This document shows, in pieces, positions 16,985 through 18,875 of a stretch of DNA of 18,875 bases; position 1 is the stretch's first letter; each line of letters opens with the position of its first letter. The notes under the pieces are model-generated. The model searched no databases. It was not told the DNA's origin and saw only the letters and a list, made by a program, of their open reading frames with translations. The DNA is taken from contig JBOGRD010000002.1 in assembly GCA_050749405.1 (NCBI GenBank), positions 155,754-174,628 on the forward strand, in the 5' to 3' direction. Both the position numbers and the translations under genes were made by a program. Origin of the DNA: Nitrosotalea sp. (GTDB lineage Archaea > Thermoproteota > Nitrososphaeria > Nitrososphaerales > Nitrosopumilaceae).

Positions 16985-17608
16985 ATGCAACGCTATACAA
17001 CCATAGCACTGTTCAGCGCTATTGCGCTTTCAGTGGGTATTCTAGGGGTCTACGGACTCGCTTCAGTACCTTCCACACTGAAAGTACAATCAGACACACA
17101 AAACATAGGTGCAGTTCCAATGTTGGGACACGTAACCATGACTGTGAAAGATGCGCAAGGAAACATACTGGCATACCATCAAGGCGACAACGTTGTGGTA
17201 AACCAAGCAGAAGACTGCTTGTCCAAGAAAGTATTTGGAATTGCTAGCAGCATATGCCCAGGTGGTGGCGCGGTCTATAACGTGATCGCAATTGGTAACG
17301 GAACTGTTACTTCAGCAAAGACAGACTCGGCACTAACTACTGAAGAGAGTGGAGTCGTAAACATGCAAAGAAAAACAGCTACGACACAAACTGAGACTGA
17401 TGCAACAGGTGTAGCACCTGTATCAGATGTGCTACAAGCACAATTTACCAACGATGGTACTACTGGCAATACCGTAAAAGAAGCTGGTTTGTTCAACAGC
17501 ACAACAGTTGGTGCTGTAGGAATGTTTGCTCACCAATCATCTTTTAGTGTGAGTCTCAATACTGGCGACTCGCTGACAGTCAAGTGGACAGTAACAATGG
17601 GAACATAA
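16985..17608 (+). CDS. N-terminally anchored or secreted hypothetical beta-rich protein (207 aa)
   Basis: ATG start. The N-terminal hydrophobic segment is TTIALFSAIALSVGILGVYGLA. The rest is Thr/Gly/Val-rich. The pattern NVVVNQAEDCL...IAIGNGT...TDSALTTEE...VKEAGLFNS...GDSLTVKWTVT resembles phage tail-collar-type domains; this is from memory and unverified. A terminator-like T8 follows. Confidence 0.6.
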   Translation: MQRYTTIALFSAIALSVGILGVYGLASVPSTLKVQSDTQNIGAVPMLGHVTMTVKDAQGNILAYHQGDNVVVNQAEDCLSKKVFGIASSICPGGGAVYNVIAIGNGTVTSAKTDSALTTEESGVVNMQRKTATTQTETDATGVAPVSDVLQAQFTNDGTTGNTVKEAGLFNSTTVGAVGMFAHQSSFSVSLNTGDSLTVKWTVTMGT

Positions 17609-17635: not shown

Positions 17636-18017
17636 CCCCTCATATTTTTAATACCATGCAAAAATCAATTGTATTTGCAAAATCTACTAAATCAACTATT
17701 ATGACTAGTTCGGAAATTTGCAATAAAAATGTCCACAATTTTCAAACTGCAGATAATGTTTTCCTTCTTCCAGTTTCTTATGATTATGATCAATCATGAG
17801 ACAGAATTTGATGGATCTGCAAAGAATGGCATCTTTGGTTATTACCTCACGTTGTCTCATATAGTTGGTAGCGACATTTAATGAGTAATTTCCATTTTTG
17901 GCAGACCAATTTTATACGATTGTTTTTTTTACAAGAAACAATGATGGAACAAACCAAAGAATCATACTTGATAATAGTACAAAGGAGTATATTGTGTACA
18001 TATGATAGCATGAGAAA

Positions 18018-18875
18018 ATGAAGTTCAAGTTATTCATGGGCATAGCCTTTGTGGTCATACTCTTTTCATCTGTTTTCCTAGTTACAGCCATAAATTCAAA
18101 CAAGGTTTATGCACAAAATGGCGCCGATGTTTTCTTGAAAAGCATAACTAGAATTCCCGGTGGTGCTGTATTTCATTCACCATCGGGTGTTGCTCTTGAC
18201 ACATCAGGGCATATCTATGTGGCCGATGCTAACAATTATCGTGTAGCAGAATTTAGCAACTCCAGTACTTTCATTGCATCATTTGGTACTTTAGGACTTG
18301 GGGAACTTAACACAACATCAGGCGTTGCTGTTGATACATCAGGTAACGTATATGCCGCAGACACTGACCACAACCGCATTGTAGAGTTTTACAACAATGG
18401 TACTTTCATAAAATCATTTAGTAATGGGCTATCGTTCCCATCAGGCGTTGCTGTTGATACATCAGGTAACGTATATGCCGCAGACACTGACAACAACCGC
18501 ATTATAGAGTTTAATAACAGAACAGGCAATTTCGTTGCATCATTTGGATCCGGAACATTGTCATCACCATCAGGCGTTGCTGTTGATACATCAGGTAACG
18601 TATATGCCGCAGACACTGACAACAACCGCATTATAGAGTTTAATAACAGAACAGGCAATTTCGTTGCATCATTTGGCTCCGGAACATTATCCTCACCATC
18701 AGGCGTCGCTGTTGATACATCAGGTAATGTATATGCTGCAGACACTGGCAACAACCGCATTATAGAGTTTAATAACAGAACAGGCAATTTCGTTGCATCA
18801 TTTGGCTCCGGAACATTATCCTCACCATCAGGCGTCGCTGTTGATACATCAGGTAATGTATATGCTGCAGACACT
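18018..18875 (+). CDS. Secreted NHL-repeat beta-propeller protein, 5' partial (286 codons, continues past the right edge)
   Basis: This gene is not in the ORF track because no stop lies in the window. ATG 18018 is the first start after the in-frame TAG at 18006-18008. The signal peptide is MKFKLFMGIAFVVILFSSVFLVTAINSNKVYA/QNG. At least six NHL units follow, of the form SPSGVAVDTSGNVYAADTDNNRIIEFNN..G.FVASFGSG. I checked the reading frame codon by codon and it is open to base 18875. Confidence 0.88.
   Translation, partial: MKFKLFMGIAFVVILFSSVFLVTAINSNKVYAQNGADVFLKSITRIPGGAVFHSPSGVALDTSGHIYVADANNYRVAEFSNSSTFIASFGTLGLGELNTTSGVAVDTSGNVYAADTDHNRIVEFYNNGTFIKSFSNGLSFPSGVAVDTSGNVYAADTDNNRIIEFNNRTGNFVASFGSGTLSSPSGVAVDTSGNVYAADTDNNRIIEFNNRTGNFVASFGSGTLSSPSGVAVDTSGNVYAADTGNNRIIEFNNRTGNFVASFGSGTLSSPSGVAVDTSGNVYAADT
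18441..18875 (+). repeat. Tandem in-frame 129-bp (43-codon) repeats, about 3.4 copies visible, nearly or fully identical
   Basis: Unit starts (TCAGGCGT...) fall at 18441, 18570, 18699 and 18828. An older unit starts at 18318 (123-bp spacing) and a divergent one at ~18180. Copy 18699-18827 matches what is visible of copy 18828-18875 exactly. Copies 18570 and 18699 differ at only a handful of mostly synonymous sites. Confidence 0.92.

What the first reader, a model, noticed from the sequence alone, without database searches (positions are those of the whole stretch)
18018..18875. Unlisted NHL beta-propeller gene built from near-identical 129-bp blades; the track's 161-aa antisense ORF is its shadow
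The only ORF listed here (18389-18874, minus) is the antisense shadow of an open-ended plus-strand gene. The plus-strand gene has a clear signal peptide and textbook NHL repeats (SGVAVDTSGNVYAADTDNNRIIEF). Unusually, the last 3-4 blades are almost identical at the DNA level (period 129 bp; the copies at 18699 and 18828 are identical over the visible part), while the first blades are progressively more divergent. Propeller blades normally diverge strongly, so this is a snapshot of very recent intragenic amplification or ongoing gene conversion in a surface protein. The blade number could vary between strains, which would resemble contingency-locus behaviour. Such repeats are also a likely site of assembly collapse or expansion.
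Basis: seen in the sequence. Interest (0 to 1): 0.62.

Follow-up and report, generated by a model that had tools for sequence, protein, structure and literature searches.

The report
Recently amplified NHL propeller blades
The window ends inside a real gene for a large secreted protein of a soil ammonia-oxidising archaeon (Nitrosotalea) whose first beta-propeller was recently rebuilt from near-identical 129-bp blade copies; this is a known way propellers evolve, and here it mainly broke or collapsed the genome assemblies.

Summary
The + strand ORF 18018-18875 is a real NHL-repeat gene (Pfam NHL 4e-46). The listed minus-strand ORF is its shadow. Blades B3-B6 are 95-100% identical at a 129-bp period, and the last 127 nt of the window exactly repeat 18620-18746.

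The window stops because a 100-N scaffold gap sits inside the array. After the gap the frame continues in register for 1175 codons: the tail of the last blade, a second diverged six-bladed NHL propeller, Ig-like modules and a DUF7305 C-terminal domain.

A second public assembly has flanks 100% identical over 9.4 kb. It carries the same gene without a gap but with 381 nt (three blades) fewer. Copy number in the databases therefore depends on the assembler.

Blade 1 and the tail of the last blade are positionally conserved across Nitrosotalea orthologues. The internal blades cluster by genome, and 6 of 7 variable sites are synonymous. This indicates recent lineage-specific amplification or homogenisation under purifying selection.

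Wherever the array is reliably resolved, the count is six: diverged blades in G068 and a long-read-like contig (L021).

The phenomenon is known (Pereira & Lupas 2022), so this is a new member of a known kind. The scan had noted a similar blade duplication and a repeat-caused assembly break elsewhere in this genome.

The parts
17977..17999 (+). Candidate promoter region: A/T-rich box GTACAAAGGA followed by TATATTG, 20-40 nt upstream of the ATG
   Evidence: Orthologue upstream regions share GATAA.AGTATAAAGGA at this position. G000 has GTACAAAGGA instead (alignment A2). The promoter role is inferred and was not tested.
18018..18113 (+). Start codon and predicted signal peptide (aa 1-32, MKFKLFMGIAFVVILFSSVFLVTAINSNKVYA|Q)
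   Evidence: Sequence features. The segment is conserved in orthologues. The orthologue AF2 model has a helix at residues 2-20 and then a low-confidence linker. Cleavage is inferred.
18114..18179 (+). Conserved pre-blade segment (QNGADVFLKSITRIPGGAVFHS), probably an extra beta-strand that helps close the first propeller
   Evidence: It is conserved in all orthologues. The orthologue model has an extra strand at residues 38-42 ahead of the 48 blade strands. The closure role is inferred.
18180..18314 (+). Blade 1 of the first NHL propeller, an old and positionally conserved blade
   Evidence: It groups with blade 1 of the orthologues (support 100/98). It is 63% nt identical to B3.
18315..18437 (+). 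Blade 2: its head is nearly identical to the B3 head (3 of 75 nt differ); its tail (RIVEFYNNGTFIKSF) resembles the tail of the last blade, which lies after the gap
18438..18824 (+). Blades 3, 4 and 5: three complete 129-bp (43-aa) units, 95-98% nt and 98-100% aa identical
18825..18875 (+). Head of blade 6, identical to the B5 head and cut off by the scaffold gap that starts at the next base
18749..18875 (+). Terminal 127-nt exact copy of 18620-18746. With the first 15 post-gap bases the periodic identity is 142 nt, a loop that short-read graphs cannot resolve
18389..18874 (-). 161-codon antisense ORF: a non-coding shadow of the repeat, kept open because the same stop-free antisense unit is repeated
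   Evidence: No Pfam hit above a cut-off. Its sequence is periodic. The + strand carries the conserved protein.

Best explanation
The region is the 5' end of one intact gene for a large secreted or cell-surface protein (at least 1461 aa) of a Nitrosotalea ammonia-oxidising archaeon.

Domain order: signal peptide; a first NHL beta-propeller; a second, diverged six-bladed NHL propeller; about six Ig/PKD-like modules; and a C-terminal DUF7305 beta-helix-like domain. The propellers are most likely ligand- or surface-binding heads on a stalk. That function is inferred from the architecture only.

In this lineage the internal blades of the first propeller were recently amplified or homogenised. The likely mechanism is unequal recombination, slippage or conversion between 129-bp units, with a register starting near unit position 54. 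Blade 1 and the tail of the last blade stayed as old, positionally conserved anchors.

The copies are kept under purifying selection, so the protein is in use. The functional blade number is most likely six, giving two tandem six-bladed propellers.

Because the periodic exact identity (142 nt) exceeds short-read k-mers, the array cannot be counted from these assemblies. This assembly broke there with a 100-N gap (minimum path six blades). A second assembly of the same strain collapsed it to three blades.
For: Shown directly:
- NHL identity (4e-46; the best solved-structure sequences are Pizza6 5e-48, TRIM71 NHL and PknD).
- The gap lies in the array and the frame continues in register (..AADT|GNNRIVEF..) for 1175 codons.
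- Post-gap domains: NHL 1e-34 and DUF7305 8.5e-7.
- Syntenic orthologues exist in Nitrosotalea.
- Blade tree: blade 1 forms a positional clade (100/98). All other G000 blades form one G000-only clade (96/95), with B3-B5 at 100/98. The G006/L021 internal blades form their own clade (100/98).
- G000 B3-B5 are 95-98% identical to each other but at most 76% to any orthologue blade.
- Of 7 variable sites among the copies, 6 are synonymous (P=0.0014 against 25% synonymous sites).
- Median blade identity is 73% in the first propeller against 45% in the second.

For six blades:
- The AF2 model of orthologue P0004, whose blades are diverged so its assembly is unambiguous, has pLDDT 90.4 and 49 strands.
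- Each half of that model matches TRIM71 NHL (TMt 0.88, rmsd 2.2 A over about 272 columns, TMq 0.43). That means two six-bladed propellers.
- The long-read-like contig L021 has six N-terminal blades where the short-read genome G006 of the same species has four.
- In the 4+6 model the N-module matches only about 4/6 of Pizza6 (TMt about 0.62) and does not close.

For an assembly effect:
- The 127/142-nt periodic exact repeat sits at the contig end.
- All five scaffold gaps of the genome lie in intragenic tandem repeats.
- L022/P0121 is 100.000% identical over 4300 nt upstream and 5113 nt downstream but 381 nt shorter in the array.

Precedent: internal-blade amplification with differing blade numbers among homologues more than 80% identical, plus the stated assembly caveat (PMC9218822).
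Against: - The true copy number in this strain is therefore unknown (six plus n), and 'six' rests on orthologues, models and the minimal graph path.
- The second assembly's 3-blade form could be a real deletion variant rather than a collapse.
- P0002 and P0003, from two different species, both show 4+6. If real, six is not obligatory.
- The tree cannot separate amplification from gene conversion.
- The signal peptide, the surface location and the binding function are inferred, and there is no expression evidence.
- The models are of orthologues, not of this protein.
Confidence: 0.82

Rival explanations
1. Genuine copy-number polymorphism. Blade number really differs between cells or strains (3, 4, 6 or more) through frequent unequal recombination, making this a variable-length surface protein (VNTR-like or contingency-like behaviour).
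For: - Two assemblies with identical flanks differ by exactly three blade units.
- G006 and L021 (97-98% identical) differ by exactly two units.
- Orthologues show 4 or 6 N-terminal blades.
- Symmetrised NHL blades can complete six-bladed rings by oligomerisation, according to the citation of Voet 2014 in PMC6805158. Odd numbers therefore need not be lethal.
- The VCBS precedent has 3, 4, 6 and 9 blades.
Against: - Every difference coincides with the places where short-read assemblers are expected to collapse.
- Zero SNPs in 9.4 kb of flanks suggests the same strain or read set.
- All reliably resolved cases have six blades.
- The 3- or 4-blade module is not predicted to close.
- The units are 129 bp and in frame, so there is no on/off switching as in classical contingency loci.
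Confidence: 0.12
2. Assembly artefact. The tandem near-identical blades in this contig are not real, for example strain variants of one blade strung together. On this reading the true gene is the 1334-aa, 3+6-blade form of the other assembly.
For: A gap-free alternative assembly exists with identical flanks. The contig ends in a repeat node.
Against: - This contig contains sequence that the short form lacks entirely and that must come from reads: the B2 tail HNRIVEFYNNGTFIKSFSNGLSF and tail haplotype x.
- The junction B5-'GGC'+RIIEF exists only if at least two loop units exist (inference).
- Orthologues have the same layout with 4-6 blades.
- Three blades cannot form an NHL ring.
Confidence: 0.05
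3. Decaying pseudogene or recombination debris of a surface-protein gene.
For: The gene is accessory: only 2 of 62 other species representatives in the genus have an orthologue. The content of the gap is unseen.
Against: - The frame is open for 286 + 1175 codons and in register across the gap.
- 6 of 7 substitutions between copies are synonymous.
- The same-strain assembly reads through without a stop.
Confidence: 0.02

Closest known systems
Highly repetitive ('recently amplified') beta-propellers, e.g. Npun_R6612 WRAP (PDB 2YMU) and VCBS chitinase propellers with internal-blade amplification (Pereira & Lupas 2022, PMC9218822; Afanasieva et al. 2019, PMC6805158)
   Same: - Near-identical blades at DNA level, with lineage-specific nucleotides shared by all amplified blades.
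- A conserved first strand or blade outside the amplified part.
- Blade numbers that differ among close homologues.
- Acknowledged assembly ambiguity.
- Median blade identity of 73% passes that study's >60% criterion.
   Different: - The family is NHL and the host is an ammonia-oxidising thaumarchaeon.
- The text of that paper does not name NHL (0 occurrences), so I cannot say whether NHL was among its 32 families.
- Here only the internal blades (about 4 of 6) are amplified, next to a second, fully diverged propeller in the same chain.
Designed 'Pizza' propellers (symmetrised from the M. tuberculosis PknD NHL sensor domain; PDB 3WW9, 6F0T and others)
   Same: They are the closest solved sequences to the window protein (E 5e-48). 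The blades are about 42-43 aa and NHL-type, with (near-)perfect repetition.
   Different: Pizza is artificial and fully symmetric. The natural protein keeps a distinct first blade and last-blade tail, and it is one domain of a protein of at least 1461 aa.
Canonical six-bladed NHL domains (TRIM71/LIN-41, Brat, Thin; PknD extracellular sensor)
   Same: Pfam NHL. The orthologue model superposes at TM 0.88-0.89, rmsd about 2.2 A, 33-38% identity.
   Different: TRIM-NHL domains are intracellular RNA or protein binders with diverged blades. This protein is extracellular, has tandem propellers, and its ligand is unknown.
Archaeal surface-layer proteins with propeller plus PKD/Ig domains (Methanosarcina mazei YVTN-PKD, PDB 1L0Q)
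   Same: The overall logic of a propeller head followed by Ig-like or PKD-like modules in a secreted archaeal protein. It appears among the Foldseek hits (rank 48).
   Different: That protein has a YVTN seven-bladed propeller, not NHL, and the match is weak (TMq 0.30). There is no evidence that the present protein is an S-layer component.
VNTR-type bacterial and fungal surface proteins with long in-frame tandem repeats (own knowledge: Alp/Rib, SasG, Als/Flo families)
   Same: Long, in-frame, near-identical DNA repeats in a surface protein. Copy number is prone to recombination and to assembly error.
   Different: Those repeats form open-ended stalks in which any number is tolerated. A propeller must close, normally at six blades for NHL.

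Membership tests
NHL repeat beta-propeller (Pfam PF01436) | Significant match to the NHL repeat profile in several consecutive ~40-45-residue units | tested here: met
   E 4.3e-46, 153 bits (cut-off 20), 6 stretches in the window part. E 1.2e-34 in the post-gap part.
NHL repeat beta-propeller (Pfam PF01436) | Six four-stranded blades closing into a ring | tested here: inconclusive
   Met for orthologue P0004: the AF2 model has pLDDT 90.4, and each half matches TRIM71 NHL at TMt 0.88. For this strain the first propeller is interrupted by the gap. The minimal path gives six blades, but the count is unverified.
Highly repetitive / recently amplified beta-propeller (sensu Pereira & Lupas 2022) | Median pairwise blade identity above 60% | tested here: met
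   73% in the first propeller (gap taken as zero) against 45% in the second.
Highly repetitive / recently amplified beta-propeller (sensu Pereira & Lupas 2022) | Amplification independent of that in close homologues (blades share lineage-specific nucleotides) | tested here: met
   Internal blades cluster by genome with 96-100% support. Blade heads are genome-specific in the alignment. Gene conversion cannot be separated from re-amplification.
Contingency (phase-variable) locus | Short simple-sequence tract whose length changes switch expression on or off | tested here: not met
   The units are 129 bp and in frame, so changes alter length and not frame.
Contingency (phase-variable) locus | Repeat-number heterogeneity within a population | not testable with these tools
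Two assemblies differ by three units, but collapse explains that equally well.
Secreted / cell-surface protein | N-terminal signal peptide; extracellular-type domains | tested here: inconclusive
   There is a hydrophobic N-terminus with AXA-like VYA|Q, conserved in orthologues, and Ig-like modules plus DUF7305 lie downstream. No signal-peptide predictor or experiment was available, and no C-terminal anchor was seen.

The most novel reading that the evidence does not exclude
The array is a naturally occurring, near-symmetric 'Pizza-like' NHL propeller whose blade number is truly polymorphic within Nitrosotalea populations (3, 4, 6 or more). Non-six forms would complete rings by oligomerisation or leave open arcs. 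Unequal recombination would then tune the binding head of a surface protein: a live example of propeller birth and re-sizing under selection in an archaeon.
Probability: 0.1. Interest if true: 0.6.

Novelty: new member of a known kind. Interest (0 to 1): 0.3.

Why it matters
Scientifically, this adds an archaeal NHL example to the documented process by which propellers are continually re-made from single blades. It offers a convenient natural series within one orthologous gene: old blades in G068, intermediate ones in G006/L021, and 95-100% identical ones here.

Practically, public records of this gene are unreliable. In one assembly it is split into two partial proteins. In another, the same strain's gene appears as a 1334-aa protein that probably lacks three blades. 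Comparative counts of blades or 'strain variation' drawn from short-read Nitrosotalea genomes would be misleading.

It does not open a new biological question by itself.

Tried and rejected
- Exact-tag scans for the amplified-blade tail (AATAACAGAACAGGCAATTTCGTTGC): no match in metagenome contigs or genome contigs.
- Searching the other assembly for orphan contigs holding the missing blades: its record is not held.
- Literature on Nitrosotalea NHL proteins: the only hit concerned an unrelated thioredoxin-NHL protein of N. viennensis.
- Whether Pereira & Lupas covered NHL: no mention in the text or in the held supplements.
- Earlier-findings look-up by sequence: only irrelevant two-word matches.
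- A single ten-bladed ring for the 4+6 orthologues: not indicated. Foldseek found one complete six-bladed NHL ring plus a partial match, and no 10-bladed propeller was among the 50 hits listed.
- Pseudogene: rejected.
- Antisense ORF as a gene: rejected.

Full report
**1. Observation**

The + strand frame 18018-18875 is open to the window end (286 codons). The only long ORF on the other strand is 18389-18874. The + product matches Pfam NHL at 4.3e-46 in six stretches. The minus product matches nothing above a cut-off.

TRF reports a 129-bp period over 18316-18875 (4.4 copies, 92% matches, score 868). I delimited the blades as follows:

| Blade | Window coordinates |
|---|---|
| B1 | 18180-18314 |
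| B2 | 18315-18437 |
| B3 | 18438-18566 |
| B4 | 18567-18695 |
| B5 | 18696-18824 |
| B6 (head only) | 18825-18875 |

B3, B4 and B5 differ at 3, 4 and 7 of 129 nt. The B6 head is identical to the B5 head. B2 is about 80% and B1 about 63% identical to B3. The last 127 nt of the window are an exact copy of 18620-18746.

**2. Why the gene is open-ended**

The window is G000:C2:155754-174628. The next base starts a run of 100 N (C2:174629-174728). After the N run the sequence resumes exactly in repeat register (…AADT | GNNRIVEF…). The frame then stays open for 1175 codons to a stop at C2:178256.

With the first 15 post-gap bases the period-129 exact identity reaches 142 nt. A de Bruijn graph with k up to 127-141 contains a loop here and cannot count the traversals (inference). 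The junction 'GGC + RIIEF tail' exists only if at least two loop units exist. The minimal path is therefore pre-gap plus post-gap with nothing hidden, which gives six blades (inference).

All five scaffold gaps of this 2.07-Mb, 53-contig assembly lie inside tandem repeats of large surface-protein genes. A genome-wide TRF scan shows this is the only NHL gene in the genome with a DNA-level repeat, although NHL paralogues are numerous (17 matches).

**3. The whole gene and its host**

Post-gap content, in order:
- the tail of the last blade of the first propeller;
- six diverged NHL blades (NHL 1.2e-34; DUF5128 '6-bladed beta-propeller');
- about six Ig-like modules of roughly 100 aa;
- a C-terminal DUF7305 domain (8.5e-7).

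The neighbours are housekeeping genes: PAPS reductase, ATP sulfurylase, aconitase X, NFACT, two tetrapyrrole methylases and UDG. NCBI names the orthologue P0004 as a Nitrosotalea sp. protein.

The gene is accessory. Only two of 62 other species representatives of the genus have an orthologue at 72% identity or more. NHL paralogues were found in all 24 genus genomes sampled. All orthologous loci are syntenic, with UDG, a protein of about 265 aa and a protein of about 207 aa upstream.

**4. Blade counts in relatives**

| Source | N-terminal blades + second propeller | Note |
|---|---|---|
| G006 (short-read genome) | 4 + 6 | |
| P0002 | 4 + 6 | |
| P0003 | 4 + 6 | |
| P0004 / G068 | 6 + 6 | N-terminal blades diverged (58-75% nt), so its assembly is not in doubt |
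| L021 | 6 + 6 | frameshift-noisy, long-read-like contig, 97-98% identical to G006, with exactly 270 nt (two 135-nt blades) more |
| L022 / P0121 (1334 aa) | 3 + 6 | flanks 100.000% identical to this genome (4300 nt upstream, 5113 nt downstream), but 381 nt (three blades) missing and no gap |

The same strain, or possibly the same reads, has therefore been assembled once as 'broken, at least six blades' and once as 'three blades'.

This contig holds sequence that the short form lacks altogether, namely the B2 tail and tail haplotype x. The short form also follows the shortest path through the shared blade heads. I therefore read the short form as a collapse.

**5. Amplification or homogenisation is lineage-specific and recent**

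In a maximum-likelihood tree of 24 blade DNA sequences:
- blade 1 forms a positional clade across genomes (100/98 for three genomes, 94/89 when P0004 is included);
- all other G000 blades form one G000-only clade (96/95), with B3-B5 at 100/98;
- the internal blades of G006/L021 form their own clade (100/98).

B3-B5 are 95-98% identical to each other and at most 76% to any orthologue blade. The tail of the last blade keeps positional similarity (75% to the last blades of G006 and P0002).

Seven sites vary among the copies and six are synonymous (binomial P = 0.0014 against a synonymous-site fraction of 0.25). The copies have therefore been under purifying selection since they arose.

The variants form head haplotypes a (B3, B4) and b (B5, B6), and tail haplotypes x (B3) and y (B4, B5). 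The duplicated unit therefore runs from about unit position 54 to position 53 of the next blade. This pattern fits stepwise unequal recombination or slippage (inference). Gene conversion without a change in number would look similar.

**6. Structure**

| AF2 model | pLDDT | pTM | Strands | Foldseek result |
|---|---|---|---|---|
| P0004 residues 1-575, 43-sequence alignment | 90.4 | 0.70 | 49 | TRIM71, Thin and Pizza6 six-bladed NHL domains each match one half (TMt 0.84-0.89, rmsd about 2.2 A, about 272 columns, TMq about 0.43): two tandem six-bladed propellers |
| P0002 (4+6) | 90.8 | 0.64 | 39 | one complete six-bladed ring (TMt 0.89); many Pizza6 alignments reach only TMt about 0.62 at rmsd about 15 A, which I attribute to the four-blade N-module matching about 4/6 of the ring (alignment ranges were not shown); no ten-bladed propeller among the 50 hits listed |

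By sequence, the closest solved proteins to the window product are the designed Pizza propellers (5e-48), TRIM71 NHL and PknD. According to PMC6805158, all Pizza constructs, whatever their blade number, reassemble into the six-bladed parent form. NHL-type blades thus strongly prefer six-fold closure.

Six blades are seen in every reliably resolved case. Together these points make six the most likely true number here. The 3- and 4-blade versions are probably under-assemblies, or else forms that need oligomerisation.

**7. Comparison with what is known**

Pereira & Lupas 2022 (PMC9218822) describe the following:
- continuous amplification of new propellers from single blades;
- independent amplification in homologues more than 80% identical;
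- the difficulty of assembling identical blades.

The present case meets their identity criterion: median 73% in the first propeller against 45% in the second. It is a further example, in the NHL family and in a thaumarchaeon. That paper's text does not name NHL, so I cannot say whether NHL was already covered.

It is not a contingency locus in the classical sense, because the units are long and in frame.

**8. Verdict**

The gene and the repeat are real. The window edge is an assembly gap. This is a new member of a known kind, of modest interest (0.3). The main practical message is that blade counts for this gene in public short-read assemblies, including a 1334-aa record of this same strain, should not be trusted.

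**9. Limits**

No reads were examined and there is no expression evidence. The function is inferred from the architecture only. The structural models are of orthologues, not of this protein.

Noticed in passing
G000 gaps: C1:119372-119471, C1:460759-460858, C2:138672-138771, C2:174629-174728 (just after the window end), C2:183038-183137: All five 100-N scaffold gaps of the assembly lie inside tandem-repeat coding sequence of large surface proteins: Ig/HYR-like, FN3-like, PT-rich, NHL, and SDSL/TDS 20-aa repeats.
   Followed up: partly
L022 4001-8005 (P0121, NCBI assembly GCA_973421715.1): A public 1334-aa version of this same protein has flanks 100% identical to the window genome but three blades fewer. 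It is probably a collapsed repeat and therefore a wrong protein length in the database.
   Followed up: yes
L004 (G006) vs L021, N-terminal module: Two assemblies of one sister species (97-98% nt identity) differ by exactly two 135-nt blades (4 vs 6). The longer one is a frameshift-noisy, long-read-like contig.
   Followed up: yes
Post-gap protein, last ~270 aa (G000:C2 about 177450-178256) vs P0002/P0004 C-termini: The C-terminal domain differs between orthologues. This strain has a DUF7305 beta-helix-like domain ending in KPGDN repeats, while P0002, P0003 and P0004 have an unrelated C-terminal region with charged low-complexity spacers. Orthologue coverage of the query stops at 78%.
   Followed up: no
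window 16985-17608 (+): A 207-aa protein with a hydrophobic N-terminus and no Pfam family lies immediately upstream of the NHL gene in every orthologous locus (207-217 aa). It is a conserved partner of unknown function.
   Followed up: partly
window 17977-17986: The conserved upstream box GTATAAAGGA of the orthologues reads GTACAAAGGA in this strain. A TATATTG follows 3 nt downstream and might substitute as the TATA element.
   Followed up: no
G000:C2:247152-247901: Another intragenic array of 120/270-bp units, 97-98% identical, encodes 40-aa units (…GDWTGSGKTSVGVFRPSAGYWYL…) that look FG-GAP/VCBS-like by eye. It has no Pfam hit. It may be a second recently amplified propeller-type repeat in this genome, and it may be the one noted in earlier finding e1-2586274.
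   Followed up: partly
G000:C1:459151-459723: A 264-bp unit repeated 2.2 times at 99% identity inside an Ig-like surface-protein gene, about 1 kb from another scaffold gap.
   Followed up: no
G000 contigs C19-C53: Many contigs of 1-5 kb have 58-72% G+C, against 38-42% for the main contigs. They are likely bacterial contamination of the assembly.
   Followed up: no
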